From assembly GCA_041666915.1 (NCBI GenBank), contig JBAYFZ010000002.1, positions 14,771-78,770 on the forward strand: a DNA stretch of 64,000 nt, read 5' to 3'. The position numbers and the translations under genes are program-made. Shown in pieces: positions 1,931 through 47,449 of the stretch; the first letter of the stretch is position 1, and each line of letters opens with the position of its first letter. Under the pieces are notes generated by a model that had not been told where the DNA came from, did not search any database, and saw nothing but the letters and a program-made list of their open reading frames with translations. The DNA is from Minisyncoccota bacterium (GTDB lineage Bacteria; Patescibacteriota; Minisyncoccia; Phycocordibacterales; PALSA-1337).

Positions 1931-4075
1931 CTATTTCCTCTTCTCCTTGATCTCCTCAGCAACATTGGCTGGTACAACATCATAGTGATCAAATTCCATC
2001 ATTGCACTACCTTGTCCAGAAGTCATAGAACGGAGTTGGGTGGTATAACCGAACATTTCTGAAAGTGGAACTTTGGCATGAATGGCCAATGCTTGACCCT
2101 TTGGCTCAGAACCTTCAATAGTACCGCGCTTGGAAGCGATAGAACCGTTGATGTCTCCCATGTATTTTTCTGGGGCAACAACTTCAAGTCTCATAATAGG
2201 TTCTAGAATAACAGGCTTGGCTCTCTTGGCAGCATCTTGGAAAGCTTGAGAAGCGGCGATTTTGTAAGCAATTTCTGATGAGTCCACATCGTGATATGAA
2301 CCGAATGTTAATTCACAAGAGACGTTGACCATCTTGTAACCAGCCAAAATACCGCGATCCATAGCTTCATGGACACCCTTTTCTACTGCTGGAATGAACT
2401 CATTTGGAATAACACCTCCCTTGATAGAGTTGATAAATTCAAAATCATCATAACGATGAACAGTCTTTGGAATTTTCTCCCCTTCTGGCCATGGTTCCAT
2501 AGGTTTCAAAGTTAGACGGACGTGTCCATATTGACCCTTACCTCCAGTCTGCTTGATATATTTGTTTTCAGCTTCTGCAGTGTTCAAGATTGTCTCTCTG
2601 TAAGCTACTTGAGGCTCACCGACATTGGCTTCAACACTAAATTCACGCTTCATACGGTCAACCATGATTTCCAAATGCAATTCACCCATTCCTGAAATAA
2701 TAGTTTCGCCAGTTTCCTGATTTGAAGAAACTCTAAAAGTAGGGTCTTCGTTACCAAGTTTACGTAATGCCATACCCATCTTTTCTTGGTCAGCTTTGGT
2801 CTTTGGTTCAATACGTAGAGAAACCACAGGTTCCATGAATTTGATAACTTCAAGAACAATAGGATTGTTTTCGTCGCAGAAAGTATGAGATGTCAAAGCA
2901 TCTTTGAGACCTACAGCTGCAGCAATCTCACCCGCAAAGACTTTCTTTACTTCTTCACGCTGATCGGCTTGCAAGCGAACGATACGACCGAGGCGTTCTT
3001 TTTTACCAGTTGTAGAGTTGTAAATATAAGTACCGGACTCAATAGTTCCTGAATAGACACGGAAGAATGTAAGCTGACCAACGAAAGGATCGTTCTGGAG
3101 TTTGAAAGCTAGAGCTGAGAAAGGTTCACTATCATCTGCATGACGGAAAATCTCCCCTCCTGTATTAGGATCTATACCCTTTATAGAAGGAATATCCAAA
3201 GGTGATGGTAGATAATCAACAACAGCATCTAGAACTAGTTGAACACCGACGTTCTTCAAAGCTGAGCCAGTAAATACTGGGAAAATCTTATTGGCGATGA
3301 CAGCAATACGTGTAATCCTCTTCAATTCATCAATAGAAATCTCTTTTCCTTCAAGATACTGTTGCATAGCAGTATCATCATTCTCAACAATCTTTTCAAT
3401 CATTTCTGCACGATATTTCTTTGCATCTTCTAGCATATCTGCAGGAATTTCCTTTTCAATAATATCAATACCTTTTTCTCCTTCAAAATAGAAAGCCTTC
3501 ATACGCATAAGGTCAACGACTCCGTTATGTTCTCCTTCTAGACCGATAGGAAGTTGGAAACGGATAGCGTGTTTATTCAATCTTTCTACAATAGACTTGA
3601 AAGACCTTTCAAATGAAGCACCCATACGGTCCATCTTATTGATGAAACAAAGACGAGGAACTTTTCCATCGTCAGCGTAACGCCAGTTTGTTTCAGATTG
3701 TGGTTCTACTCCAGCCACTCCGTCAAAGACAACAACAGCGCCATCTAGTACGCGTAGAGAACGCTTTACTTCTACAGTAAAGTCAATGTGTCCTGGTGTA
3801 TCAATAACGTTGAAACGAACCTTCTTGGAAAGATCCGTCTTTGGCATGTATGTAGGATTCCAAAAACAAGTGATGGCAGCCGCTGTAATAGTAATACCGC
3901 GCTCCCTTTCTTGTTCCATCCAGTCTGTGGTTGTCTCACCATCGTGAACTTCACCGATCTTGTGGATCATTCCCGTGTAATACAAGATACGTTCTGAAGT
4001 CGTGGTCTTACCGGCATCAATGTGAGCAATGATACCGAAGTTGCGCATACGCTCAAGAGGATAGTCGCGGTTCAT
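1931..4075 (-). CDS. fusA: elongation factor G
   Basis: 714 aa; AHIDAGKTTTSERIL, DTPGHIDF, NKMDR G-domain motifs with full-length EF-G architecture. Confidence 0.97.
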   Translation of the reverse strand: MNRDYPLERMRNFGIIAHIDAGKTTTSERILYYTGMIHKIGEVHDGETTTDWMEQERERGITITAAAITCFWNPTYMPKTDLSKKVRFNVIDTPGHIDFTVEVKRSLRVLDGAVVVFDGVAGVEPQSETNWRYADDGKVPRLCFINKMDRMGASFERSFKSIVERLNKHAIRFQLPIGLEGEHNGVVDLMRMKAFYFEGEKGIDIIEKEIPADMLEDAKKYRAEMIEKIVENDDTAMQQYLEGKEISIDELKRITRIAVIANKIFPVFTGSALKNVGVQLVLDAVVDYLPSPLDIPSIKGIDPNTGGEIFRHADDSEPFSALAFKLQNDPFVGQLTFFRVYSGTIESGTYIYNSTTGKKERLGRIVRLQADQREEVKKVFAGEIAAAVGLKDALTSHTFCDENNPIVLEVIKFMEPVVSLRIEPKTKADQEKMGMALRKLGNEDPTFRVSSNQETGETIISGMGELHLEIMVDRMKREFSVEANVGEPQVAYRETILNTAEAENKYIKQTGGKGQYGHVRLTLKPMEPWPEGEKIPKTVHRYDDFEFINSIKGGVIPNEFIPAVEKGVHEAMDRGILAGYKMVNVSCELTFGSYHDVDSSEIAYKIAASQAFQDAAKRAKPVILEPIMRLEVVAPEKYMGDINGSIASKRGTIEGSEPKGQALAIHAKVPLSEMFGYTTQLRSMTSGQGSAMMEFDHYDVVPANVAEEIKEKRK

Positions 4076-4183: not shown

Positions 4184-4966
4184 CTATATCATCCCAAGTA
4201 AAGTATCCTTCCAACCCTTCTTCTCTGGTGTACTCAAAAAGAACTCCGATGGACAAGTCGTTTTTGGATTGATTTCTCTATGACCAAAGATTCTATCTTT
4301 TGAGACATTAGAGTATTTCTTACGGATCAATCCTGCGATAGCTTCAAGCTCAATCTGGCTTGGTACACCATTTTCATGATCATCATCCAAACAAATAGCC
4401 GTACTTCTACAGTTGATATCCCAATTCCCCGCTTGCCAACCTATCTCATCATCATTCAACAACCTCTCGCACTTTCCATCTTTACGAACAATCCAATGAT
4501 ATGGCCAAAAAACTTGTAAACCATTTCTAAAATGTCCTGAATAAATAAAATTATCTTTTATTTCTTTGTTAGCATCATAAGTAGGACCTTTCCCTGCATA
4601 CTGTGGAGCATATAGACGAACAAGTTCTATAGCTGACAAACGTTCTTTGGTCAAACCAGGGAAAGAACTCGTATGATGAATAATTATAGTATCAATAGGT
4701 TTTCTTTCTTCATCAAAATTCTTACCTTCTTTACCCAAGGCCACATTTCCAAGTATCAACTGCTCCTCAAAGAAATCGTACACTCTTTCTTTTTGCTTTT
4801 CGTAAGCGGGACGATCCATATCATGTAAACGACTCAAATCCTTCAAGACTTGAGGAATCTCTTTATACCAGTGAGGATTCTTTATCTTTATTTTCCATTC
4901 AGAAATGTTGAAGGTGAACATAACTAAGATAAATAAGCATTTTCCCAACAACTGTAACATACCCAA
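4184..4966 (-). CDS. N-acetylmuramoyl-L-alanine amidase (Amidase_2/PGRP-like) with N-terminal signal anchor
   Basis: DTIIIHHTSS...GWQAGNWDINCRSTAICL...GHREINPKTTCP matches the amidase_2 zinc-amidase signature. Hydrophobic N-terminus. Confidence 0.75.
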   Translation of the reverse strand: MGMLQLLGKCLFILVMFTFNISEWKIKIKNPHWYKEIPQVLKDLSRLHDMDRPAYEKQKERVYDFFEEQLILGNVALGKEGKNFDEERKPIDTIIIHHTSSFPGLTKERLSAIELVRLYAPQYAGKGPTYDANKEIKDNFIYSGHFRNGLQVFWPYHWIVRKDGKCERLLNDDEIGWQAGNWDINCRSTAICLDDDHENGVPSQIELEAIAGLIRKKYSNVSKDRIFGHREINPKTTCPSEFFLSTPEKKGWKDTLLGMI

Positions 4967-37681: not shown

Positions 37682-39211
37682 ATGTCACTCAAACTAGTCG
37701 CACTTTACCTCTCCATCGCCGGAGTTGTCGGTGTGGCTGTCGGATATTATCTACGACTGATCATCTCATTGGGCAAAAAGGGTTCTATGGAACTTGAGAT
37801 CAAGGAAATGCTCCTTGCTGCCAAAGAGGAAGCAAAAAAGATCACCGCTGATACCGAAGCCAAAGCCGCCAAAATTCACGACGATGCAAAGATAGAGATC
37901 AAAGAGAAAGAAGATAAGATTCATCAAACCGAAGATCGTCTCGTAAAACGAGAGGATTTATTGGACAAACGTCAGTCAGATCTAGACAAAGAAGTAGAAA
38001 TGATCAAGCAACGCGTGGCTGAAATAAAGGCTATTCGTGAAAAAGCCGACAAAATGGAAGAAGATCGTAAGTCTGCTCTAGAGAAAATAGCAAAATTAAC
38101 GTCAGAAGAAGCCAAAGAACAACTCATCAAGCTCGTAGAAAAACAATCCGAAGAAGACTTGCTTGTTCGTATGAATAAGTTAGATACTCATGGCGAAGAA
38201 ATGTTAGATCAAAAAGCTCGAGATATTTTGGCTATATCTATCCAACGTCTTGCTTCATCAGTTGCTCAAGATGTCATGTCTACTTCCGTAGAGATTCCTA
38301 GTGATGATGTCAAAGGTAAAATCATCGGTAAAGAAGGTCGTAATATCAAAGCTTTTGAACGTATCACCGGTGTTGAAGTCATGGTTGATGATACTCCAGG
38401 AGCTATTACTATTTCATCATTTGATCCAGTTCGCCGTCATATCGCAAGAATAGCTCTTTCAGAACTCATCAAAGATGGTCGTATTCAACCAGCCAAGATT
38501 GAACAGGTTGTAGAAAAAGCCAAACAAGATATCAATAAAACCATAAAGGAAAAGGGTGAACAAGCTGCTTATGATTGCGGTATTATAGGATTAGACCCTA
38601 GAATTCTCCTTATTCTAGGCCGTCTCCATTTCCGTACTAGTTACGGTCAAAATGTCTTGCAACACTCCATAGAAATGGCACACATCGCAGGTATGATAGC
38701 CGAAGAACTAGGTGCCAATGTTCAAGTTGCAAAGGCTGGTGCTCTTCTACACGATCTAGGTAAAGCTCTAGACCATGAAGTTGCTGGTACTCACGTAGAC
38801 ATTGGTCGTCGTATCTTGCAAAAGTTTGGTGCATCAGAAGAGATCATCAAAGCTATGCAAGCTCATCATGAGGAATATCCTTACGAAACAGTTGAATCTC
38901 GTATCGTCCAAACTGCCGATGCAATTTCCGGAGCTCGTCCCGGTGCTCGTCGTGATAACATTGAAAATTATTTGAAGAGACTCGGCGATCTAGAAGCTCT
39001 AGCTAATTCATTCCCTGGTATTGAAAAATCTTACGCTCTACAAGCTGGCCGTGAAATAAGAATATTCGTTAAGCCAGAAGAGATCAATGATGTCGCAGCC
39101 AAGGAATTAGCTCGCAATATAGCCCTCAAAATAGAAAAAGACTTGAAATATCCTGGTGAAATCAAAGTTACTATCATCAGAGAAACAAGGACTATTGAGT
39201 TCGCTAGGTAA
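37682..39211 (+). CDS. rny: ribonuclease Y
   Basis: 509 aa; N-terminal TM, coiled-coil, KH (IIGKEGRNIK) and HD (LHDLGK) domains. Confidence 0.93.
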   Translation: MSLKLVALYLSIAGVVGVAVGYYLRLIISLGKKGSMELEIKEMLLAAKEEAKKITADTEAKAAKIHDDAKIEIKEKEDKIHQTEDRLVKREDLLDKRQSDLDKEVEMIKQRVAEIKAIREKADKMEEDRKSALEKIAKLTSEEAKEQLIKLVEKQSEEDLLVRMNKLDTHGEEMLDQKARDILAISIQRLASSVAQDVMSTSVEIPSDDVKGKIIGKEGRNIKAFERITGVEVMVDDTPGAITISSFDPVRRHIARIALSELIKDGRIQPAKIEQVVEKAKQDINKTIKEKGEQAAYDCGIIGLDPRILLILGRLHFRTSYGQNVLQHSIEMAHIAGMIAEELGANVQVAKAGALLHDLGKALDHEVAGTHVDIGRRILQKFGASEEIIKAMQAHHEEYPYETVESRIVQTADAISGARPGARRDNIENYLKRLGDLEALANSFPGIEKSYALQAGREIRIFVKPEEINDVAAKELARNIALKIEKDLKYPGEIKVTIIRETRTIEFAR

Positions 39212-39271
39212 AAAACGAGGTCCGACCTCACAGAAAAATACCCCTAGAAAATCATTCTTCGGGTATTTTTT

Positions 39272-39493
39272 GTGAAAAAATGGTATAATATAGCAATGAA
39301 TAAGCATTGGTCAGTTGATGAAAAAGAACTTGTCAAGAATCCAGAGGCACATACCATCTGGAAGCTTGAGCAACGTATAAACTGGGGTATCGGTGAGAAA
39401 ATCATGAGTAAAGTTGATTTACTTAAATTCTGGGATCGCCTAGATATAGATCCTTGGAAACGCAAGGCTCTCGCTCTTGCATTATTTGCATAA
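39272..39493 (+). CDS. small hypothetical ORF upstream of the AbiEii-like gene (possible truncated antitoxin partner)
   Basis: 73-aa ORF ending 18 nt before the 39512 start; no family recognised. Confidence 0.3.
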   Translation: MKKWYNIAMNKHWSVDEKELVKNPEAHTIWKLEQRINWGIGEKIMSKVDLLKFWDRLDIDPWKRKALALALFA

Positions 39494-39511
39494 TTTCTAG
39501 CTTACATAAAC

Positions 39512-40171
39512 ATGCAGTCAATTCTCTCCAAGAATCAACAGAATTTGCTTTCAATTCTTGCCAAAGAAAGCCTGATAACCGACAATTTCTATTTAACTGG
39601 CGGTACCGCTTTGACAGAATTTTATCTCCACCATCGCCTATCTGAAGACTTGGATTTCTTTTCCGAAAATGAATTTGATCCACAAGCTATTTCTACACTA
39701 TTTAAGAAAATCCAGAAAAGTGCTGGTATTAAAAAAGTCTCCTATGAGCAAAGCTTTAATAGAAACCTATTCTTTTTAGAATTGGAAAATGACTCTATAA
39801 AGACAGAATTCACCTATTTCCCTTTTGCAAGAATTGACCTCAAGCAAAAACTGGATGATTTATCAGTTGATAGTTTACTAGATATTGCCGTAAATAAGGT
39901 TTTTACCATATACCAAAAACCTCGTTCTCGTGATTTCATTGATTTATACTGCATATTGCAAGAGAAAAAGGACTGGACGATTGATGATCTAGCCAAAAAG
40001 GCTCAAGTAAAATTTGATAATTTCATTGATCCCCTACAGCTTGCCGCGCAATTCGTCAAATGCCAAGAATTGAAAGATTACCCTACGATGATTAAAAAGA
40101 TTGATGAAAAAGACTGGCAATCATTTTTTATGAATGAAGCCAAAAGACTTTCAAGTGGTGAGGTAAGGTAG
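39512..40171 (+). CDS. AbiEii/DUF1814-family nucleotidyltransferase (type IV TA toxin-like)
   Basis: 219 aa; YLTGGTALTEFYLHHRLSEDLDFF is the AbiEii/DUF1814 N-terminal motif. Confidence 0.6.
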   Translation: MQSILSKNQQNLLSILAKESLITDNFYLTGGTALTEFYLHHRLSEDLDFFSENEFDPQAISTLFKKIQKSAGIKKVSYEQSFNRNLFFLELENDSIKTEFTYFPFARIDLKQKLDDLSVDSLLDIAVNKVFTIYQKPRSRDFIDLYCILQEKKDWTIDDLAKKAQVKFDNFIDPLQLAAQFVKCQELKDYPTMIKKIDEKDWQSFFMNEAKRLSSGEVR

Positions 40172-40374
40172 GTACTAATATTTTACTTTTTAAATTTAAT
40201 TCAAAAAAATTCAAGAACAAATTGGCTATATATGTCAATAGTATAACTCCTGTTGCTTATAATACGGCTTACTATATAATTATAGCCACGGTTCGAGACT
40301 CGTCCCGCTCTCCTCTCGGAGATAGTGGTGCGGGGCGGGACCAGTTAGTAATTTATTAAGTAATAAAAACAACT

Positions 40375-40647
40375 ATGAACAAAGCAGGTATTGTAGATGC
40401 AGTTCACGCAATCCTCGGAGGAACCAAGGTTCAAGCCGAGCAAGCAGTCGAGACAGCCATTAATAGCATCATTGATTCACTCAAGAAGGGTGATGAAGTA
40501 TCTATCGCAGGTCTCGGTATCTTCTCAGTAAAACAGCGTGCAGCTCGCGAAGCTCGCAATCCTCGCACGGGTGAGGCCATCAAGGTCCCAGCTATGAAGG
40601 TTCCAAAGTTCCGCGCCGCAAAGGCCCTCAAGGACGCAGTTAAATAG
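40375..40647 (+). CDS. hup: DNA-binding protein HU
   Basis: 90 aa; GLGIFSVKQRAAREARNPRTGEAIKVPAMKVPKFRA is the HU arm signature. Confidence 0.93.
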   Translation: MNKAGIVDAVHAILGGTKVQAEQAVETAINSIIDSLKKGDEVSIAGLGIFSVKQRAAREARNPRTGEAIKVPAMKVPKFRAAKALKDAVK

Positions 40648-40717
40648 TAGCTCTGTAAGGCTATTACAAACAAACTCAATAGGATCACCAAAAGTCTTCT
40701 TATTGTTATCGAACAAA

Positions 40718-40746
40718 AGACCGCCTTAACAGCGGTTTTTTGTTTG
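40718..40746 (+). terminator. rho-independent terminator after hup
   Basis: accgccttaacagcggt hairpin followed by ttttttgtttg. Confidence 0.6.
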
Positions 40747-40814
40747 TACAGTTGACTTTACGGATACAATCGTATACAAACGAATATAAGCAATAAATCA
40801 AAACGTAATTTTCC

Positions 40815-41892
40815 CTATTGGGTTTTGATTGTTAGATTCCTAATCACGGCTTCCAACTTTTTACTATTACCATGACTTATCAACCCTAAATAGGACTGCA
40901 CTGTAGCTGATTTACCGTTACATGATTGTAATTTTCGAAACATTCTCCTTTTAGCACTTGTCCGCAGAACACGGTGGTCAGGAAAATTGATCCACCCAAG
41001 ATAATCGTTACCGGAAGCAATCGTACGTATAGAGACTTTTTTTGGATGTAGCTGGAGTATTAATCTATTCTTCAGAAAATCAGTGATCTTTTGAATAATT
41101 TGGTATAGCCAAGTTCGGTCAGGTGACAAAATTACAAAATCATCAGCATAACGGATATAATATTTCGCTTTTATTTTATGTTTCATATACTGATCAAATT
41201 CATTCATATATATGTTCACCAGCAACTGCGAAGTAAGATTGCCAAGTGGTAGACCGACACCTTTTCCAGTTGAAGAAAAACTATGCACGATTTCTGAGAT
41301 AAGAGCAACGATATCCTTATCTGGAATATACGTTTCAAGAATCTGAAGCAAGTTTCGCTGATCAATCGAGGCAAAGAATTTACGTATGTCGCATTTGAGC
41401 ACCCAAGCAGTTCGAGTATGGTTATGAGTGACTTTATTGGAGAAAACCATAAATCTATTGACGGCTTTATGTGTCCCCTTTCTCAACCGGCAAGAGTATG
41501 AGTCAGATATGAATGTCTTATCAAAAAATGTGTAAAGTATTCGATAGATGGCATGATGTAATAGTCTGTCACGAACAGTGGCTTTGTGTATGTCTCTCGG
41601 CTTGGGATCATTGATTTTAAATGCTTCATATGGCGAATGCTTGTAATTCCTATTTGTAAGATCCAGATGCAATGAAATCACATTACTCATCAAGTCACGT
41701 TCAAATTCCTGAACATCTTTTCTTGATTGCTTACCTTTCTTAAATTCTTTCCAAGCCAAAAGAAGATTTTCGATAGAAATGATATCATCATAGGTATGAT
41801 TAGATCTGATTCGTCGCAAACTATGAAAGCCCCCCCCAACCGGATTTTGCCGGTCTTGAATAATGTCAAAAATGCTTATTTGTTGTGGCATA
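40815..41892 (-). CDS. diversity-generating retroelement (DGR) reverse transcriptase; ATG at 41892 or, more likely, TTG at 41819
   Basis: RT motifs incl. YIRYADDFVI, and LPLGNLTSQLLVNIY with SQ in place of the QGxxxSP seen in other RTs, which is the DGR-RT hallmark. Overall collinear with Bordetella-phage-type DGR RTs. Confidence 0.85.
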
Positions 41893-42233
41893 GTTATTAT
41901 CAAGATTTACCAAAATTTAATCGGAACTCCTTCGGGTACCGCATCGATTCATTGTTTGTTGAAACAATTGAAGCTATTGTCACCGCCAGTTTCTTGTCAC
42001 AGCAAGAAAAGCATCCGTATATCCGACTTGCTATACGAAAACTTGATACACTCAAGATATTGCTCATGATCCTATGGGAAACTAAATCACTCAACGACAA
42101 GAAATACATCGCACTATCAGTAAAACTCGATGAAATCGGTCGCAACCTAGGTGGTTGGAGTGGACAACTTGCAAAATCTCTCGACAATACTCGAGATAAA
42201 CAAAACTCCCCCATGAAGACGAGGGAGAAATGA
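41823..42233 (+). CDS. avd: DGR accessory variability determinant (Avd-like four-helix-bundle protein), encoded on the strand opposite to the RT
   Basis: LDEIGRNLGGWSGQLAKS matches the Avd C-terminal motif (IAEVGRILGSWIARV-type). Belongs to the 23S-IVS/four-helix-bundle family. Confidence 0.7.
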   Translation: MKAPPNRILPVLNNVKNAYLLWHSYYQDLPKFNRNSFGYRIDSLFVETIEAIVTASFLSQQEKHPYIRLAIRKLDTLKILLMILWETKSLNDKKYIALSVKLDEIGRNLGGWSGQLAKSLDNTRDKQNSPMKTREK

Positions 42234-42238
42234 AGAGA

Positions 42239-42367
42239 GTTGCGTGACGGAGAGCCGGATTGTTACCGTTCCAATTGTTGTCGAGCCAGTTCCAATTGAG
42301 AATCACCTTGTCGCCGTTCTCGTAGAGATACGGGACATTGAGGTTACCGTTGCGGTTCCGCACGTAT
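42239..42367 (-). repeat. DGR template repeat (TR)
   Basis: About 128 nt, roughly 85% identical to 42791..42917. On the coding (minus) strand the mismatches sit almost exclusively at TR adenines (AAC/AAT codons). Shares an identical GC-rich 18-nt 3' end (cggctctccgtcacgcaa) with the VR. Confidence 0.85.
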
Positions 42368-42433
42368 ATGCAAAATGCCTCCCATACCACCACCCTTTGA
42401 ATACTCTCAAGGTTGAATCGAATTCGGCATCTC

Positions 42434-42630
42434 ATTCAGCAGAATGACCTACTGAGCTAATGCCATAGCATTTTACACCAAGTATCTTCAATTTTTGAAG
42501 TGTCTACATAAACCCTCCGAGAGAAGCCTGATTCAGCAGAATCACCTACTGGGTTGACCGCTCTCGTTCTCAGCTTATGGATACTGGATTCGGCCGCTGG
42601 AAGCCTTGACCGCCAGCAGATTCGCCTACT
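42434..42630. repeat. three degenerate direct repeats (cagcagaat[g/c]acctactg, cagcagattcgcctact) in the TR-VR spacer
   Basis: Copies at 42434..42456, 42531..42553, 42612..42630. Related to the 25-nt insert cccagtaggcgatcctgctggatc at 18541..18565, in inverse orientation. Confidence 0.5.
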
Positions 42631-42778
42631 ACCAGATATAAGTTTACCATATGCAGAAAACCCACACGATTTCATCATGTGGGTTTTGAATGTCAGCGGC
42701 TCATTCCATGCCGAGTGGTTAGACCACCAAATTTTTAGGACAAAGGTCAAAGTGCAGAAAGTGCAAAGTGACCAAGGT

Positions 42779-43414
42779 CTAAGTGCTAACTTGCGTGACG
42801 GAGAGCCGAAGAGTCCCGTACCAATCGTTGCCGAGCCAGTCCCAATTGAGAATCACCTTGTCGCCGCACCCGTAGAGATACGGGACAGAGAGGCTACCGA
42901 GGCGGTCCCGCACGACTGATGCCCAGCCGAAGACTGCCTTATCTTTAAAGTATTTCCTGAAAAAGACAATACCTTTCTTCTGGATTTCTTCAAGGTCTCG
43001 AAGACCAAGACAAGTCTTCAACGTGTCGGTTTCCCTGAGATGAGTGTAGATTTTGTTTCCCCCGATACACCCATCCTTCTGACCATCATGTAACCATTGC
43101 TCCACCTTGGTGATGTCATATTCCGTAGGACCGACATTCTCCAATTTCGGATGCATCACTTCCTTCACCCAATCTGGATATGAAGGACGAATGGAGCGAT
43201 CTACGCGGATAACAGGGTCAATCGCCAGTTCTGGTTCAAGGATGGGTTTGGGCTTGATGATTAATTCCGCTTCGCCACTAGCGAGCCGAATGACCGACTT
43301 AAGGTTATCACCAGTAGAAAGCCAATCCAAAACGGCTGTACTACCGCCGTTGCGTTGGAAAGCGAATTCCAATTTCTGACCCGCACCTTGACTCATTGTG
43401 AACGTGCTATTCAT
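42779..43414 (-). CDS. DGR target protein carrying the variable repeat at its 3' end (VR 42791..42917)
   Basis: 211 aa. The C-terminus ...VPYLYGCGDKVILNWDWLGNDWYGTLRLSVTQVST corresponds to the TR-encoded ...VPYLYENGDKVILNWNWLDNNWNGNNPALRH. Confidence 0.75.
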   Translation of the reverse strand: MNSTFTMSQGAGQKLEFAFQRNGGSTAVLDWLSTGDNLKSVIRLASGEAELIIKPKPILEPELAIDPVIRVDRSIRPSYPDWVKEVMHPKLENVGPTEYDITKVEQWLHDGQKDGCIGGNKIYTHLRETDTLKTCLGLRDLEEIQKKGIVFFRKYFKDKAVFGWASVVRDRLGSLSVPYLYGCGDKVILNWDWLGNDWYGTLRLSVTQVST

Positions 43415-43658
43415 AATAGCTTGTCCTTTCTTTATTGTGAGCGAGCCTTATTAAGGCATGCTCTGGTTTATTATGCTGGGCTCTTCGCCACAGCACTCAA
43501 AGCCCTAAAGTAAGGCGCTAAATGCTGTGGCGAACGCAAATTAGAGTATCAAAGAACTTATGTTATGATAAGTATTATATCATAACTGTTTTATAAGTCA
43601 AGTCAATGAAATAATGACTCTATTTAGGTATATATTTGTGTCACCCTATTCTACTTTG

Positions 43659-43729
43659 TGCGGGATGGGAGAATCGAACTCCCGACCGATGATTGGAAAT
43701 CAGCTGTTATACCATTTAACTAATCCCGC
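43659..43729 (-). tRNA. tRNA-Gly (anticodon UCC)
   Basis: GCGGGAT acceptor stem; D-arm GTTA/TAAC; anticodon arm GCTGA-TTTCCAA-TCATC (one C-U mismatch); T-arm GGGAG-TTCGATT-CTCCC; discriminator A. No encoded CCA. Confidence 0.7.
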
Positions 43730-43812
43730 ATATGTTGATTGAGAACAAAATCTATACTAGCAATAATATCCACCCGTAACAAGATGTAATGCTATATTTG
43801 TATTTTAAAAAC

Positions 43813-44247
43813 TTATTTACTTACTGACTTATCTTCAGGAGAGACTGCTTCTTTGATCTCATCAACTTCTTTCTTGATCTCTTTTATAGTCGCTTGAATC
43901 TGATGTATCTCTGCTTCCTCTTCTTGAACCTCCCTTTCAGTCTTGTCCGTAGCTTTCTTTTCTTTTTTGAGACCACTCATCACAATACTTTGTCCAATAA
44001 AAGAAGAAACAAAAAGACCTGTTGCAAGAAGTATTATTGTAACGATGATCGCGTTCACTGGTTCATAGAATAACCAGCCCAACCATCCTCCCCTAGCCTG
44101 CAAAATGTCTGCTGTATGCCATACACCGCGCCAGAAAAGCACAATGGCCGTACCTCCGATGAGAGTATAAACTATCGGATACCTGCTCAAATGACCACGT
44201 ACATTATCTTCAAATTTATCAAAGAAATTAACTATTTTTTTTATCAT
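43813..44247 (-). CDS. hypothetical membrane protein; start at MIKKIV
   Basis: Two TM helices. The longer ORF (to 44289) would run through the tRNA-Pro gene. Confidence 0.5.
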   Translation of the reverse strand: MIKKIVNFFDKFEDNVRGHLSRYPIVYTLIGGTAIVLFWRGVWHTADILQARGGWLGWLFYEPVNAIIVTIILLATGLFVSSFIGQSIVMSGLKKEKKATDKTEREVQEEEAEIHQIQATIKEIKKEVDEIKEAVSPEDKSVSK

Positions 44248-44248
44248 G

Positions 44249-44321
44249 TCGGAGCGCCGGGATTCGAACCCGGAGTCGCCTCTTCCCAAAAGAGGAATGT
44301 TAGCCGTTACACCACGCTCCG
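44249..44321 (-). tRNA. tRNA-Pro (anticodon UGG)
   Basis: CGGAGCG acceptor; anticodon arm CCTCT-TTTGGGA-AGAGG; T-arm CCGGG-TTCGAAT-CCCGG. Confidence 0.8.
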
Positions 44322-44343
44322 ATAACTAAACTATCCTAACATA

Positions 44344-44754
44344 TTATAAAATAATATTCTCTATCATTCTTAATTTCGCCATACGATTGGCCATATTCAA
44401 ATAGACGCATATAACGTGAAAACGAAATTCTATTTCAAGTCCTATATGGTTTTCATCCAAATAGGTTTCTACCATACGCCTAATATGCCTAATTTTCAAG
44501 CCATGAACATTATCTTCTGGACGACGAGTATCATTACCAAGATCGTGAAAAGATTGAACGGTAACACTTTTGACTTCAAAAAAATGTAGAATATTGTCTT
44601 TTTGAGCAATAATGTCTATTTCTCCCCAAACCTTTCTATAATTACGATCAACGATAATAAACCCTTTATTTACAAGGAATTTACAGGAAATGTCTTCGCC
44701 CTTATTCCCTGTCAACTTGTTATTAGACTTCCTATTTTGACGTATATTAGCCAT
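44344..44754 (-). CDS. YraN/UPF0102-family endonuclease-like protein
   Basis: 136 aa; KGEDISCKFLVNKGFIIVDRNYRKVWGEIDIIAQKDNILHFFEVKS is the YraN pattern. Confidence 0.65.
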   Translation of the reverse strand: MANIRQNRKSNNKLTGNKGEDISCKFLVNKGFIIVDRNYRKVWGEIDIIAQKDNILHFFEVKSVTVQSFHDLGNDTRRPEDNVHGLKIRHIRRMVETYLDENHIGLEIEFRFHVICVYLNMANRMAKLRMIENIIL

Positions 44755-44938
44755 AAAACCTGTCTTTTATACACCAAATCCACAGGGTTATCCCCAGTTG
44801 TCCATTACTTTTACGATTTTTAGCCGTATTCTTTAGGACTTAGTCTCATATAAGTCCTATGCAAAATTAGATGCGCAATAAAAACGCCTAAAAATATAAG
44901 TTAATTAGAGACAACAATATTTAATAACCTCTTCCCTG

Positions 44939-45009
44939 TGCGGGTAGGGAGAATCGAACTCCCAACTTATCGTTGGCAACGATACGTTTTACCACTAAAC
45001 TATACCCGC
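44939..45009 (-). tRNA. tRNA-Gly (anticodon GCC)
   Basis: GCGGGTA acceptor; anticodon arm TATCG-TTGCCAA-CGATA; T-arm GGGAG-TTCGATT-CTCCC. Confidence 0.8.
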
Positions 45010-45113
45010 TTTGATTACAAACAAGAGTATAACTGTATTAAGTCTTTTTTACAAATTATATCTATACTGTGCTTGCACTACGAAGCAATTGGCTATTAGC
45101 CAATTGCGAAGTA

Positions 45114-45186
45114 GTGCGCTCGGTAGGACTCGAACCTACAACCCCTTGGTCCGAAGCCAAGTGCTCTATCCATTGAGCCACGAGCG
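45114..45186 (-). tRNA. tRNA-Arg (anticodon UCG)
   Basis: GCGCTCG acceptor; D-arm GCTCAATGGATAGAGC; anticodon arm CTTGG-CTTCGGA-CCAAG; T-arm GTAGG-TTCGAGT-CCTAC. Confidence 0.8.
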
Positions 45187-45858
45187 CGTATCTCCATAAT
45201 ACTGTATTAATAGCTTTTGCCAAGCTCTCATAAGTCTGAAGACATAGACATCTGTTATATAAAGACACATACAACCCTTATAATCAGGGTTTTTCTTTAT
45301 AATACGCTTGGTTGGCTTATAAATTGTTCTGTGAAACAAGCTTGGATTTACACCCAATTTACCAGCCCAAAACATTTCTATATTTTCATATCCAGGAACT
45401 CTATGTATAAAAAGACGACATTTTATCCTATCGCTATCAACCTTTAGATATTTCTGAATCCAGTTATACATAAAAACAACCATGTCTGGATCAGAATTCA
45501 CAAATTGAAAATTATTGTGTCTTTTGGCACCTTCAGCCCAATATAAAGTAATCCCAATCAAAAACCGATGATCGGTCTGCATTTCCTTAAAAATCTTTTT
45601 TGCATCTTCAAAAGCCACTATTTCCCTATTGAGTCTTGACTGCCGATTGGTCGCGGCCGACTTCAACATACCCTTTCCTCTCCTATCAACTAACCTTTTA
45701 GCAATACCCTCTTTTTCTTCTCTAGAAAATTCCAAATCTTTGAACCAATATGACAATAATCCCCTTGATACGGGTACTATTTGTGTTATTTCAGAGTAAG
45801 TCATACCCTGTTTTCGTAGCTCTATTGCTTTATTTTTTTCTATTAATCTTGCTGTCAT
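45166..45858 (-). CDS. HTH plus possible LAGLIDADG-like endonuclease-domain protein; 3' end overlaps tRNA-Arg by about 20 nt
   Basis: 230 aa; N-terminal ELRKQGMTYSEITQ HTH. LIGITLYWAEGAKRHNNFQFVNSD is reminiscent of a LAGLIDADG block. Weak. Confidence 0.4.
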   Translation of the reverse strand: MTARLIEKNKAIELRKQGMTYSEITQIVPVSRGLLSYWFKDLEFSREEKEGIAKRLVDRRGKGMLKSAATNRQSRLNREIVAFEDAKKIFKEMQTDHRFLIGITLYWAEGAKRHNNFQFVNSDPDMVVFMYNWIQKYLKVDSDRIKCRLFIHRVPGYENIEMFWAGKLGVNPSLFHRTIYKPTKRIIKKNPDYKGCMCLYITDVYVFRLMRAWQKLLIQYYGDTRSWLNG

Positions 45859-45964
45859 GTTACATAACTATAATACACTGTTCAATTTTTGAATACAAGC
45901 ATGGATTTATCAACCGCAAACAACCTGATTGGAGAAAACCCCAAACTATTGTAGAATCAATGTC

Positions 45965-47449
45965 ATGAAAAACAAGGATGAAACAATCCCAAAGGAAGTT
46001 GCAGATACCCTTAGAACCCTAGAAAATGCCAAATTTGAGGCGTATCTAGTAGGGGGCTGTGTTCGTGACATCTTCTTAGGAAGAAAGCCTAGGGACTGGG
46101 ATATAACCACCAATGCCAAACCAGACCAGATTCAAGCTTTGTTTCCAAAAACCGTCTATGAAAATACCTTCGGTACAGTTGCTGTCATAAATGAACAAAC
46201 TGAAGACTTAACTCTAAAGAATATAGAGATAACGCCTTACCGAACCGAAACTGGTTATAGCGACCGCAGACACCCAAACGAGGTAACTTTCAGTACAAAG
46301 ATAGAGGACGATCTCAAAAGACGTGACTTTACCGTAAACGCCATAGCTATAAACTTGTCCAATGGAGCCATAAAAGACACTATTGATCTTTATGGTGGAC
46401 TAAAAGACATTCAGGATAAGACTATAAGGACAGTCGGGGAAGCCAAGGACCGCTTCAATGAAGACGCTTTGCGTATGATTAGAGCCGTTCGTTTGGCTGT
46501 GGAATTAGGTTTCACGTGTAACTCCGAAACTTTCAAGGCTATACAGAGCCATAATTCACTAATAAAAGAAGTATCCTTGGAAAGGGTTAGGGATGAGTTT
46601 ACCAAGATAATGATGTCAGAAAGTCCAAAGAAAGGTATTGAATTACTTCACGAATCAGGATTGCTTCAATACATTATCCCTGAATTAGAACAGGGAATTG
46701 GTGTAAAACAACCGCAAGCACACCTTTACGATGTTTGGGAACACTTGCTTAGGACCGTTCAACATTCAGCAGACAAGGGTTACGACTTGGATATGCGCCT
46801 ATCGGCTTTATTCCACGATATAGGTAAACCAAAGACCAAAGACTTTTCACGTGAGACAAATCAGCCTACTTTCTATGGTCATGACGTAGTTGGTTCACGT
46901 GAAACACGTAGAATACTAGAGAAATTGAAGTTTTCACGTGCAACAATAGAAAAAGTGACTAAATTGGTACGTTGGCACATGTTTTTTGCTGATCCTGAGC
47001 AAATAAGCCTTTCTGCAGTAAGAAGGATGGTTGTTAACGTCGGACCAGATAATATCTGGAACCTTATGAATCTACGTATGTGCGACCGTATTGGTACAGG
47101 AAGACCAAAAGAAGACCCTTACAGGCTTAGAAAGTATAAATCAATGATAGAAGAAGCTGTAAGAGCTCCTGTTTCTGTGAAAATGCTCAAAATTGATGGA
47201 AAGAGGATAATGGAGATTGCCAACATTCCACCAAGTCCAAAAGTTGGTATGGTTTTGAATGCTCTCATGGAAGAGGTTTTGGATGATCCAAAATTAAATA
47301 CAAAAGATTATCTTGAAGAAAAAACTCAAAAACTTATTGCATTATCCGAAGAAGAATTGAATAATCTTGCAACAAAAGGGAAAGAAAAGAAAGCAGAAGC
47401 CGAAGAAAAAGAAATAGAAGAGATTAGAAACAAGCACAGTGTTAGATAA
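45965..47449 (+). CDS. cca: CCA-adding tRNA nucleotidyltransferase with HD domain
   Basis: AYLVGGCVRD, RRDFTVNA, HD-domain LFHDIGK. Start may instead be at 45929. Confidence 0.9.
   Translation: MKNKDETIPKEVADTLRTLENAKFEAYLVGGCVRDIFLGRKPRDWDITTNAKPDQIQALFPKTVYENTFGTVAVINEQTEDLTLKNIEITPYRTETGYSDRRHPNEVTFSTKIEDDLKRRDFTVNAIAINLSNGAIKDTIDLYGGLKDIQDKTIRTVGEAKDRFNEDALRMIRAVRLAVELGFTCNSETFKAIQSHNSLIKEVSLERVRDEFTKIMMSESPKKGIELLHESGLLQYIIPELEQGIGVKQPQAHLYDVWEHLLRTVQHSADKGYDLDMRLSALFHDIGKPKTKDFSRETNQPTFYGHDVVGSRETRRILEKLKFSRATIEKVTKLVRWHMFFADPEQISLSAVRRMVVNVGPDNIWNLMNLRMCDRIGTGRPKEDPYRLRKYKSMIEEAVRAPVSVKMLKIDGKRIMEIANIPPSPKVGMVLNALMEEVLDDPKLNTKDYLEEKTQKLIALSEEELNNLATKGKEKKAEAEEKEIEEIRNKHSVR

What the first reader, a model, noticed from the sequence alone, without database searches (positions are those of the whole stretch)
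40815..43414. Complete diversity-generating retroelement with adenine-specific TR/VR divergence and an inverted avd
Three observations together define a DGR.

- An RT at 40815..41892 (-) carries LGNLTSQ, the SQ-for-QGxxxSP swap diagnostic of DGR reverse transcriptases.
- An Avd-like four-helix-bundle gene at 41823..42233 (+) has the LDEIGRNLGGWSGQL motif.
- Two ~128-nt repeats (42239..42367 and 42791..42917) are about 85% identical. Their differences fall almost exclusively where the template has A on the coding (minus) strand. The template-encoded peptide is Asn-rich (NWNWLDNNWNGNN) while the variable copy encodes NWDWLGNDWYGTL. Both repeats end with the same GC-rich 18-mer (cggctctccgtcacgcaa), consistent with an initiation-of-mutagenic-homing boundary.

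The variable repeat is the 3' end of a 211-aa target gene. Unusually, avd is on the opposite strand and abuts or overlaps the RT 5' end.
Basis: partly seen in the sequence, partly recalled or inferred. Interest (0 to 1): 0.9.

Follow-up and report, generated by a model that had tools for sequence, protein, structure and literature searches.

The report
Typical CPR-bacterial diversity-generating retroelement
This is a genuine, complete diversity-generating retroelement (a reverse-transcriptase system that rewrites the tip of one protein) with the gene layout already known to be standard in ultra-small CPR bacteria, so it is ordinary as such; comparing it with about 70 relatives did reveal a conserved, structured RNA in front of the template that is absent from Rfam and from the papers I could read.

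Summary
A 125-nt template repeat (TR, 42364-42240, minus strand) and a variable repeat (VR, 42914-42791) differ by 17 substitutions. Sixteen of these fall at TR adenines, all at codon positions 1 or 2. The RT is closest to Bordetella phage Brt, and an Avd gene is present. The VR forms the last 41 codons of a 211-aa target gene.

The "unusual" inverted avd is not unusual. It is architecture B3, TR-(avd)-RT, reported for 90% of CPR DGRs, and it occurs in 77 of 77 related Patescibacteria loci examined here.

It frameshifts the target's conserved C-terminus (PALRHAS).

Comparison of the related loci added four findings:
- A leader of about 230 nt directly 5' of the TR, with 46 predicted pairs, 42 of them covarying. 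It has no Rfam match and follows an extended -10 box.
- A covarying hairpin plus U-tract 12 nt 3' of the TR, lying antisense inside the avd tail.
- An array of CTTNG motifs just after the VR.
- One sister pair of loci with identical TR and RT whose VRs differ at 19 sites, all 19 at TR adenines.

Verdict: a new member of a known kind. The RNA features deserve follow-up.

The parts
42779..43414 (-). Target gene (211 aa; an alternative start at M7 gives 205 aa). It belongs to a Patescibacteria-only family of about 200-aa hypothetical proteins.
42791..42914 (-). Variable repeat (VR), covering the last 41 codons of the target. It carries a 1-nt deletion at about 42808-42815 that frameshifts the conserved PALRHAS C-terminus to LRLSVTQVST.
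   Evidence: The identical allele occurs in NCBI MAG protein MFA6554415.1 and in a Logan assembly of SRR6484324.
42741..42783 (-). Array of five CTT[ATG]G motifs spaced 7-8 nt apart, immediately 3' of the VR. It overlaps the target stop codon. Its function is unknown.
   Evidence: mean 3.0 motifs per 70 nt after the VR in 70 loci versus 0.20 in 2034 control windows. Four or more copies occur in 37% of loci versus 0% of controls. The array is absent after the TR.
42657..42687 (-). Hairpin with 14-nt arms followed by a T-run. It is the probable intrinsic terminator of the target gene.
   Evidence: Inverted repeat I12. Equivalent hairpins with T-runs precede the TR-RNA promoter box in the related loci.
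42641..42649 (-). Extended -10-like box TGGTAAACT, the putative promoter of the TR-containing non-coding RNA.
   Evidence: A TGnTAnAnT box sits 5-7 nt upstream of the conserved leader start in the loci listed. Coordinates. Transcription itself was not shown.
42365..42635 (-). Conserved structured leader directly 5' of the TR (271 nt here; median 231 nt).
- H1: 42616-42597.
- H2: 42579-42572 / 42514-42507.
- H3: 42566-42556 / 42528-42518.
- H4 (long-range, ending about 6 nt before the TR): 42476-42467 / 42379-42370.
- H5: 42463-42460 / 42430-42427.
- H7: 42413-42406 / 42399-42392.
- Two mini-hairpin inserts of about 24 nt sit on the apices of H3 and H5.
   Evidence: - RNAalifold: 46 pairs, 42 with compensatory changes.
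- 96.4% of cells paired versus 72.6% in shuffles and 38-51% when slid; 576 double changes versus 152 +/- 17; 0/500 shuffles reach the observed value.
- A profile built without the window hits 42634-42365(-) at E = 3.5e-46, and hits all 74 loci that have upstream DNA.
- No Rfam match.
42240..42364 (-). Template repeat (TR): 125 nt with 35 adenines and 20 variable codons (8 AAC, 4 AAT), giving a theoretical repertoire of about 10^19 proteins. The last 18 nt are identical to the VR, which is the IMH-like boundary.
42196..42227 (-). Hairpin (9 bp, 4-nt loop; 42227-42206) followed by the U-tract TTTTGTTTAT, starting 12 nt 3' of the TR and lying antisense inside the avd C-terminal codons. It is a probable terminator of the TR RNA and/or the counterpart of the BPP-1 Avd-binding stem-loop.
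   Evidence: - Flagged by the terminator scan.
- Present in 70/70 loci. Under strict criteria, 54/70 versus 22/1318 control windows.
- All 7 stem pairs covary; 0/500 shuffles reach the observed value.
- Read in three different avd frames, with the avd stop before, inside or after the hairpin.
41796..42233 (+). avd (accessory variability determinant). It is 136 aa from the ATG at 41823, or 145 aa from the ATG at 41796. It is convergent with the TR and divergent from the RT.
   Evidence: NCBIfam DivGenRetAVD 4.8e-13, Pfam bAvd 1.2e-7, PHROG 3206 'Avd protein of DGR' 9.5e-13. The same position and orientation occur in 77/77 related loci.
40815..41903 (-). DGR reverse transcriptase. The ORF runs to 41903; the likely start is the TTG at 41819, giving 334 aa. 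Motifs LGNLTSQ and YADD are present.
40720..40736 (-). Terminator-like hairpin after the RT stop, shared with the convergent HU gene.
   Evidence: The HU gene is identified.

Best explanation
This is a structurally complete, chromosomal diversity-generating retroelement. It belongs to the type standard in Patescibacteria (CPR): architecture B3, with target/VR, TR, inverted avd and RT in that order. The host is a Candidatus Paceibacterota bacterium.

Proposed mechanism. Steps 1-4 are inferred from the anatomy and from the Bordetella phage paradigm.
1. A stand-alone non-coding RNA of about 400-440 nt is transcribed on the minus strand from an extended -10 promoter (42649-42641). It consists of a structured leader (42635-42365), the TR (42364-42240) and a 3' hairpin with U-tract (42227-42196). 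The hairpin ends the transcript and/or binds Avd.
2. The RT and Avd are expressed from back-to-back divergent genes. They assemble on this RNA. The long-range helix H4 abuts the 5' end of the TR, where a duplex that stops cDNA synthesis would be expected.
3. The RT copies the TR into cDNA and misincorporates opposite adenines.
4. The cDNA replaces the VR up to the shared GC-rich 18-mer. This recodes up to 20 codons (about 10^19 variants) at the C-terminus of a 211-aa protein of unknown function, probably a binding protein with a C-type-lectin-like fold.

The current VR allele carries a 1-nt deletion next to an AAC codon, a known by-product of DGR homing. The deletion destroys the conserved C-terminal strand. 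The next homing event would restore the frame from the TR.

Shown here: the components, the adenine-restricted differences, conservation of the layout, covariation in the RNA, and activity in a sister element. Inferred: the transcript ends, protein-RNA binding, priming, homing in this particular genome, and the role of the target.
For: - TR/VR: 13 of 13 core mismatches at TR adenines (P = 6e-9), all at codon positions 1 or 2. Overall 16 of 17 substitutions at A. The TR is rich in AAY codons.
- RT: best solved relative is 8ub7, which is BPP-1 Brt, at 1.9e-43. That score is twice that of group II RTs. The SQ motif is present. PHROG 1423 matches at 2.8e-101.
- Avd: three independent profile libraries match.
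- Layout: 77/77 related loci have avd inverted and abutting the RT. In 69 loci the TR ends a median of 7.5 nt from the avd stop, the VR lies a median of 340 nt upstream, and mismatches are adenine-biased. This matches published architecture B3 (PMC5758913) and the CPR clade 2 (PMC8144416).
- Activity in the clade: L026 and L027 have identical TR, RT and target upstream sequence, yet their VRs differ at 19 of 19 TR-adenine positions.
- RNA: leader covariation, a promoter-like box, and a 3' hairpin with U-tract that covaries and is independent of the avd reading frame.
- Handa et al. (bioRxiv 10.1101/2023.10.23.563531) describe an Avd-binding stem-loop just 3' of the TR and a stop duplex at the 5' end of the TR in BPP-1.
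Against: - There is no evidence of VR variation for this locus. The only other copies found are identical, and a metagenome scan found nothing.
- The VR is frameshifted at its 3' end, so the present allele may be non-functional, or the element may no longer be homing.
- The Avd scores are below the curated cut-offs of Pfam and NCBIfam.
- The 18-mer boundary is identical in TR and VR, so whatever distinguishes donor from acceptor must lie outside it.
- No transcript data exist. A search for a BPP-1-like duplex between sequence upstream and downstream of the TR was inconclusive.
Confidence: 0.93

Rival explanations
1. This is a DGR that is no longer homing, and the VR is a frozen product of past activity that is now decaying.
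For: A 1-nt deletion and a C-to-T change in the VR destroy a nearly invariant C-terminal motif. The same allele appears in three assemblies with no variants. No variants were recovered from metagenome contigs.
Against: The RT, avd, TR, leader, promoter box and hairpin are all intact and score like those of relatives. All other TR/VR differences are canonical. Indels next to AAC are a documented by-product of active homing (PMC5758913). A sister element is demonstrably active. The three assemblies may derive from the same sample.
Confidence: 0.15
2. The hairpin with U-tract after the TR is only a transcription terminator (for the TR RNA, or shared with avd), and the leader is only a 5' UTR-like or regulatory element. 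Neither is part of the reverse-transcription machinery.
For: The hairpin has classic intrinsic-terminator anatomy: a GC-rich stem of 7-13 bp followed at once by TTTTGTTTT. No conserved tetraloop sequence is seen. The upstream/downstream duplex test was inconclusive.
Against: In BPP-1 a stem-loop at exactly this position binds Avd, and similar stem-loops were predicted in 207 of 278 Avd-containing DGRs, CPR ones included. The leader has five or more covarying helices over about 230 nt, is fused directly to the TR, and is found in all 74 loci that could be tested. That is far more than a terminator or simple UTR needs. The two roles do not exclude each other.
Confidence: 0.2
3. This is not a DGR. 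The repeats are an ordinary partial gene duplication lying next to a group II intron or retron-type RT.
For: The best NCBIfam hit of the RT is the group II intron RT/maturase model (1.6e-42, far below its cut-off). That library has no DGR RT model among the hits.
Against: Mismatches are restricted to adenines (P = 6e-9). The RT is much closer to Brt than to group II RTs. Avd is present. No group II intron or retron RNA match was found in Rfam. The whole cassette is conserved in about 70 loci with the same bias.
Confidence: 0.01
4. The conservation between VR and TR reflects a small protein-coding gene (for example the 97-aa ORF at 42457..42750 on the minus strand), not an RNA.
For: An ORF of 97 aa overlaps this stretch in the window.
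Against: Paired columns covary as Watson-Crick and G-U pairs (96.4% paired). Length variation occurs as insertions at helix apices, not in multiples of three. The stretch begins right after a terminator and a promoter-like box and runs into the TR without a stop-codon pattern.
Confidence: 0.02

Closest known systems
CPR/Patescibacteria DGRs: architecture B3, TR-(avd)-RT (Wu et al. 2018, PMC5758913), which is DGR clade 2 of Roux et al. 2021 (PMC8144416)
   Same: Same order and orientation of target/VR, TR, inverted avd and RT. The host is a Patescibacteria bacterium. The element is cellular, not viral. The target has no recognisable domain or transmembrane segment. An occasional indel occurs next to an AAC codon. 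The closest RTs (53-69% identity) are all in Patescibacteria assemblies.
   Different: Nothing essential differs. This copy has a frameshifted VR tail and two small inserts in the leader RNA. The leader, the 3' hairpin within avd and the CTTNG array are properties of the whole clade. I did not find them described in the papers I could read.
Bordetella phage BPP-1 DGR (mtd-avd-TR-brt), the prototype
   Same: The RT is a homologue of Brt (152 bits). Avd is present. Mutagenesis is adenine-specific, at AAY codons. The VR is at the 3' end of the target. A GC-rich TR/VR boundary is present. A stem-loop lies just 3' of the TR, and a duplex abuts the 5' end of the TR.
   Different: In BPP-1, avd lies upstream on the same strand, and a structured spacer of about 140 nt between TR and brt carries the primer and the RT- and Avd-binding elements. 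Here that position is taken by antisense avd. Only one hairpin with a U-tract follows the TR, and about 230 nt of structured RNA lies upstream of the TR. The hairpin after the VR is 100 nt away, not adjacent. The element is chromosomal, not phage-borne. The target is not a tail fibre.
RT-10 and other 'RT' RNA motifs (Weinberg et al. 2017, PMC5737381) and the BPP-1 spacer RNA elements (Handa et al., bioRxiv 10.1101/2023.10.23.563531)
   Same: These are structured non-coding RNAs physically linked to a DGR template and presumed to serve reverse transcription.
   Different: [quoted passage not shown] The leader here is 5' of the TR. It matches no Rfam 15 family at E <= 10.
C-type-lectin-fold DGR variable proteins (Mtd 1yu0, TvpA 2y3c, Legionella Lcl-type 8q4e)

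Membership tests
Diversity-generating retroelement (DGR) | Reverse transcriptase of the DGR lineage, with [LIV]GxxxSQ in place of QGxxxSP and a YxDD catalytic motif | tested here: met
   LPLGNLTSQ and YADD are present. The best PDB relative is BPP-1 Brt at 1.9e-43, against 3e-21 or weaker for group II/retron-type RTs. PHROG 1423 matches at 2.8e-101. No phylogenetic tree was built.
Diversity-generating retroelement (DGR) | A TR/VR pair of near-repeats whose differences fall at template adenines | tested here: met
   13 of 13 in the core and 16 of 17 overall; P = 6e-9; codon positions 1 and 2 only.
Diversity-generating retroelement (DGR) | VR inside a protein-coding target; TR non-coding and close to the RT | tested here: met
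   The VR covers codons 168-208 of the 211-aa target. The TR lies in the non-coding RNA unit 421 nt from the RT start. The 114-aa ORF over the TR is only its copy of the target frame.
Diversity-generating retroelement (DGR) | Accessory protein Avd | tested here: met
   DivGenRetAVD 4.8e-13 (49 bits, cut-off 80); Pfam bAvd 1.2e-7 (32.7 bits, cut-off 40); PHROG 'Avd protein of DGR' 9.5e-13. The matches are significant but below the curated cut-offs. No structure was predicted.
Diversity-generating retroelement (DGR) | IMH/IMH*-type 3' boundary: a GC-rich segment shared by TR and VR, followed by divergent sequence | tested here: inconclusive
   An identical 18-mer ends both repeats, and the flanks then diverge completely. 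No internal IMH versus IMH* differences are seen. A CTTNG array specific to the VR side could supply the discrimination, but that is untested.
Diversity-generating retroelement (DGR) | Ongoing mutagenic homing (VR variation between individuals carrying the same TR) | not testable with these tools
   The only other copies of this locus are identical, the metagenome scan was empty, and no reads are available. Within the clade the feature is met: L026 versus L027, 19 of 19 VR differences at TR adenines.
Diversity-generating retroelement (DGR) | Variable residues displayed on a C-type-lectin (or Ig) fold | tested here: inconclusive
DGR architecture B3 (Wu et al. 2018) / CPR DGR clade | Order TR, avd on the reverse strand, RT; host in the CPR | tested here: met
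   Window coordinates. 77/77 related loci are in Patescibacteria assemblies. The definition of B3 was read. An identical protein is annotated as Candidatus Paceibacterota.
BPP-1-type Avd-binding stem-loop (Handa et al.) | A stem of about 9-11 bp capped by a small loop, just downstream of the TR | tested here: met
   A 9-bp stem with a 4-nt loop lies 12 nt after the TR. It is conserved with covariation in 70/70 loci. Binding to Avd is not testable here, and no conserved UNCG or GNRA loop is present.
Rho-independent terminator | GC-rich hairpin immediately followed by a U-tract | tested here: met
   The U-tract is conserved in three different avd reading frames. Termination itself is not testable here.
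Any Rfam 15 RNA family (including RT-n motifs, group II intron, retron msr) | Covariance-model match to the leader or the TR flanks | tested here: not met
   There was no match at E <= 1 in window 39000-46000, apart from tRNAs and two sub-threshold Plastid-ycf2 matches lying over the tRNA genes on the opposite strand. There was no match at E <= 10 in L008 3900-5100, apart from chance-level miRNA hits elsewhere in the stretch.

The most novel reading that the evidence does not exclude
In the B3 DGRs that dominate CPR bacteria, the RNA scaffold serving reverse transcription may be arranged differently from the Bordetella paradigm, in three respects.
- The scaffold is a multi-helix leader of about 230 nt placed 5' of the template, whereas in BPP-1 it is a spacer 3' of it. 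The leader has twin stem-loops with a shared apical motif and a long-range helix that abuts the 5' end of the TR.
- The whole RNA is an autonomous unit running from its own promoter to its own terminator. Its 3' hairpin and U-tract are written antisense into the avd stop region.
- A CTTNG array marks the VR as the acceptor site.

Neither the leader nor the array matches an Rfam family or is mentioned in the papers I could read, so they may be undescribed RNA and DNA elements of a very abundant class of retroelements.
Probability: 0.45. Interest if true: 0.7.

Novelty: new member of a known kind. Interest (0 to 1): 0.45.

Why it matters
As a DGR, this locus adds one more example to tens of thousands and does not change understanding. 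In particular, the inverted avd that prompted the high first-stage score is the norm in CPR bacteria.

The value lies in what the comparison exposes. CPR DGRs are among the most numerous cellular DGRs, yet their mechanism has never been reconstituted. With avd inverted, there is no room for the spacer RNA on which the Bordetella mechanism depends. The comparison yields concrete constructs for in vitro reconstitution:
- a covarying leader fused to the template;
- a hairpin with U-tract shared with the avd coding end;
- a repeat array specific to the VR side.

Together these give a testable hypothesis for how priming, termination and acceptor choice work in these elements.

The frameshifted VR allele also illustrates the cost of mutagenic homing, and the way it can correct itself at the next round.

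Tried and rejected
- The first self-BLAST used an unsupported scoring scheme and returned nothing. It was repeated with valid parameters.
- RNAalifold on a plain MAFFT alignment of the region downstream of the TR gave 0 pairs, because the stems were out of register. I replaced this with a scan in each locus and a register-anchored, loop-trimmed alignment. The register was chosen by maximising pairing, so only the diversity of pair types is informative there.
- I looked for a BPP-1-like duplex between the 60 nt upstream and the 160 nt downstream of the TR using RNAduplex against shuffles. The median z was -0.67, which is inconclusive.
- I considered that the conserved apical loops of H1 and H3 pair with the CTTNG array. 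Own-locus duplex energy (-7.57) is no better than cross-locus energy (-7.79), p = 0.63, so the idea is rejected.
- A metagenome scan with the adenine-masked TR gave 0 hits. I did not use the second scan because the source contig is evidently not in that collection.
- Foldseek against the PDB found nothing for the target. The afdb50 library was unavailable. Phmmer and profile searches of the target against the PDB, and a Pfam scan of 65 family members, gave only chance-level hits. Avd has no sequence match in the PDB.
- I considered that the KQNSP tail of Avd is conserved as protein. This is rejected, because the same nucleotides are read in three frames and the stop position varies.
- Paul et al. 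2017 (PMC5436926), the main paper on CPR DGRs, is not held. Prior description of the leader therefore cannot be excluded.
- I did not build a covariance model of the leader.
Full report
**What is in the window**

The minus strand carries, in order, the following features:
- a 211-aa ORF (43414-42779);
- a gap of 426 nt;
- a 125-nt repeat of the end of that ORF (42364-42240);
- a 136-aa ORF on the plus strand (41823-42233);
- a 362-aa ORF, again on the minus strand (41903-40815).

The two repeat copies share a 99-nt ungapped core at 87% identity and an identical 18-mer at their 3' ends.

**The substitution pattern**

On the coding (minus) strand, all 13 core mismatches fall where the 42.3-kb copy has A. 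The core has 28 A in 99 nt, giving a hypergeometric P of 6e-9. All 13 fall at codon positions 1 or 2 of the target frame. This fixes the 42.3-kb copy as the template (TR) and the 42.9-kb copy as the variable repeat (VR).

Between the core and the 18-mer lie three more A-to-N changes, one C-to-T change and a 1-nt deletion (TR GGTAACAATCCGGC versus VR GG-GACTCTTCGGC). The overall count is 16 of 17 substitutions at adenines plus one indel.

The TR has 35 adenines and 20 codons that can vary, including 8 AAC and 4 AAT. That gives a theoretical repertoire of about 10^19 proteins. No other sequence in the 64-kb window matches the TR at its non-adenine positions.

**The proteins**

The RT has LPLGNLTSQ and YADD and matches Pfam RVT_1.
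- Its best solved relative is 8ub7 chain A (1.9e-43, 152 bits). Group II intron and "retron-type" RTs score 79 bits or less.
- The aligned part of 8ub7 is 100% identical to brt of Bordetella phage BPP-1, the prototype DGR RT.
- PHROG 1423 matches at 2.8e-101.
- NCBIfam returned only non-DGR RT models, all far below their cut-offs.

The plus-strand ORF matches three independent Avd profiles: NCBIfam DivGenRetAVD at 4.8e-13, Pfam bAvd at 1.2e-7, and PHROG 3206 "Avd protein of DGR" at 9.5e-13. The first two are below their curated cut-offs.

The identification as a DGR is therefore secure.

**Is the inverted avd unusual? No.**

A scan of one genome per species returned 80 loci with related RTs (53-69% identity). 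Nearly all are titled as Patescibacteria or CPR assemblies, and two short contigs are binned as Bacteroidota and Nitrospira.
- In all 77 loci that retain DNA upstream of the RT, avd lies on the opposite strand, abutting or overlapping the 5' end of the RT.
- In 69 loci a TR on the RT strand ends a median of 7.5 nt from the avd stop codon. The VR lies on the same strand a median of 340 nt upstream, and the mismatches are overwhelmingly at adenines.
- Wu et al. (PMC5758913) define this layout as architecture B3, "TR-(avd)-RT". [quoted passage not shown]
- Roux et al. (PMC8144416) place Patescibacteria DGRs in a cellular clade 2 whose targets lack recognisable domains.

The window's neighbours are RNase Y, HU, the CCA-adding enzyme, YraN, four tRNAs and an AbiEii toxin. 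This is a chromosomal context. An identical target protein is annotated in a Candidatus Paceibacterota MAG.

**Gene starts**

In most homologues the first ATG of the RT frame aligns with window residue 29-30, which is a TTG at 41819-41817. In several loci the avd ATG lies 8-12 codons upstream of the position equivalent to 41823, and the window has an in-frame ATG at 41796. The two genes are therefore back-to-back. They are separated by 3 nt, or they overlap by about 24 nt at their 5' ends. The longer overlap implied by the maximal ORFs is probably not real.

**The target**

The target has 224 homologues, all hypothetical proteins of about 200 aa with no Pfam domain. No phmmer or profile match to the PDB rises above chance.

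The family ends in a nearly invariant P-A-L-R-[HL]-A-S, which is exactly what the window's TR encodes (NNPALRHAT). The window's own VR has lost one base, so the protein ends GTLRLSVTQVST. The deleted base is adjacent to an AAC codon. Wu et al. report indels in 7% of DGRs, 74% of them next to AAC.

The same allele is present in an NCBI MAG and in a Logan assembly of SRR6484324. A one-off assembly error is therefore unlikely, although the assemblies may share a sample.

**Activity**

No variant VRs could be found for this locus. Within the clade, loci L026 and L027 have 100% identical TR, RT and 400 nt of target upstream sequence. Their VRs differ at 19 positions, all 19 at TR adenines. Elements of this type therefore do home in nature.

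**RNA elements found by comparison: the 3' hairpin**

Twelve nucleotides after the TR there is a 9-bp hairpin followed by TTTTGTTTAT (42227-42196).
- The terminator scan flags it independently.
- A hairpin with a T-tract occurs at this position in 70 of 70 loci. Under strict criteria the count is 54/70, against 22/1318 random windows.
- On a register-anchored alignment, all 7 stem pairs show compensatory changes: 90 double-change cells against 19 +/- 3.6 in shuffles.
- The element lies antisense within the last codons of avd. Across loci the same nucleotides are read in three different avd frames (KQNSP in 43 loci, NKTP in 18, another frame in 4). The avd stop falls before, inside or after the hairpin. 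The constraint therefore acts on the nucleic acid.

Handa et al. (bioRxiv 10.1101/2023.10.23.563531) show that in BPP-1 the first element 3' of the TR is an Avd-binding stem-loop. They predict similar stem-loops in 207 of 278 Avd-containing DGRs, including CPR ones. This hairpin is probably its counterpart. The U-tract suggests that it also terminates the transcript.

**RNA elements found by comparison: the leader**

The gap between VR and TR is alignable in all loci. From the VR towards the TR it consists of:
- the target terminator hairpin (42687-42657);
- an extended -10-like box, TGnTAnAnT (window TGGTAAACT, 42649-42641);
- about 230 nt of conserved sequence running straight into the TR.

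On a sequence-only MAFFT alignment of 50 leaders, RNAalifold predicts 46 pairs, 42 of which show compensatory changes. The controls are clear:
- 96.4% of cells are paired, against 72.6% in shuffles and 38-51% when partners are slid;
- there are 576 double-change cells, against 152 +/- 17 in shuffles;
- 0 of 500 shuffles reach the observed values.

The structural features are as follows:
- Two stem-loops (H1, H3) share the apical motif G-R-Y-Y-A-M-G-G-Y-T-T.
- A 10-bp long-range helix (H4) ends about 6 nt before the TR.
- Length variation is confined to helix apices. In the window this includes two copies of a mini-hairpin of about 24 nt, on H3 and H5.

A profile built without the window finds one hit in the window (42634-42365, minus strand, E = 3.5e-46). 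It also finds one hit in each of the 74 loci that retain upstream DNA, always on the RT strand.

Rfam 15 has no match. [quoted passage not shown] Handa et al. analysed only 40 nt upstream of the TR.

**RNA and DNA elements found by comparison: the CTTNG array**

The 70 nt after the VR carry on average 3.0 CTT[ATG]G motifs, with five in the window. Random windows carry 0.20. The preferred spacing is 7-8 nt, and no such array follows the TR. Pairing of this array with the leader loops was tested and rejected.

**How it most likely works**

An autonomous non-coding RNA (leader, TR, hairpin with U-tract) is made convergently with avd. RT and Avd assemble on it, with the 3' hairpin as the likely Avd site and H4 as the likely block at the 5' end of the TR. 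cDNA is made with misincorporation opposite adenines and replaces the VR up to the shared 18-mer. The array on the VR side may help to distinguish acceptor from donor.

Only the anatomy, conservation, covariation and adenine bias are shown here. Transcription, binding, priming and homing are inferred from the Bordetella paradigm.

**Verdict**

The finding is real and correctly interpreted, but it is a new member of a well-known kind. The feature that seemed unusual is the published norm for its lineage. The follow-up observations on the RNA are the interesting part. They concern the whole clade, not this locus alone.

Noticed in passing
window 42808-42815 (VR), target codons 200-211: A 1-nt deletion in the VR relative to the TR frameshifts the target's last 10 codons. 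The family's nearly invariant C-terminus PALR[HL]AS is replaced by LRLSVTQVST. The same allele is present in an NCBI MAG protein and a Logan assembly.
   Followed up: yes
window 42365-42635 (-); loci L002-L079 at about 4250-4560: A conserved leader RNA of about 230 nt with strong covariation lies directly 5' of the TR in all related DGR loci. It is preceded by an extended -10-like box (window 42641-42649) and has no Rfam match.
   Followed up: yes
window 42196-42227 (-), overlapping avd codons 42196-42233 (+): A covarying hairpin with a U-tract lies 12 nt after the TR and is written antisense into the avd C-terminal tail. Across loci the same nucleotides are read in three avd frames, and the avd stop position varies.
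   Followed up: yes
window 42741-42783 (-): A tandem array of CTT[ATG]G motifs spaced 7-8 nt apart lies right after the VR and target stop. It is about 15-fold enriched over background in all related loci and is absent after the TR. Its function is unknown.
   Followed up: partly
window 42431-42454 and 42528-42551 (direct repeat D6, 92% identical): Two copies of a mini-hairpin of about 24 nt are inserted at the apical loops of leader helices H5 and H3. Other loci lack them. This may be a small mobile or duplicated hairpin.
   Followed up: partly
leader helices H1 (window 42616-42597) and H3 (42566-42518): The two stem-loops share a conserved apical motif, G-R-Y-Y-A-M-G-G-Y-T-T (for example CGGTCACGGCTT). 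They look like a duplicated module, possibly a repeated protein-binding site.
   Followed up: no
L026 4084-4209 versus L027 1237-1362: Two assemblies have identical TR, RT and target upstream sequence, but their VRs differ at 19 sites, all at TR adenines. This is natural evidence of ongoing homing in the clade.
   Followed up: yes
L053 (VR 3872-3996 on the opposite strand, downstream of the RT): One related locus has its VR downstream of the RT in inverted orientation, a variant of the usual layout.
   Followed up: no
L022 (titled Bacteroidota) and L027 (titled Nitrospira sp.): Short contigs (3.5-3.9 kb) carrying this CPR-type DGR are binned into non-CPR MAGs. This is probably mis-binning and not horizontal transfer. 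L027 is identical to a CPR contig apart from its VR.
   Followed up: no
window 39272-40171 (+): An AbiEii-family nucleotidyltransferase toxin gene (Pfam 4.6e-21) follows a 73-aa ORF that might be its antitoxin. It lies about 650 nt from the 3' end of the RT gene, with the HU gene between them.
   Followed up: no
window 40720-40736: A single hairpin flanked by T-runs on both strands lies between the convergent HU gene (40375-40647, +) and the RT gene. It looks like a bidirectional terminator.
   Followed up: no
window 43658-45187 (-): A cluster of four tRNA genes (Gly-TCC, Pro-TGG, Gly-GCC, Arg-TCG) is interleaved with small protein genes immediately upstream of the target gene. A strong promoter-like site (TTGACT-16-TATAAT with TG) at 43601-43574 (-) precedes the target.
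   Followed up: no
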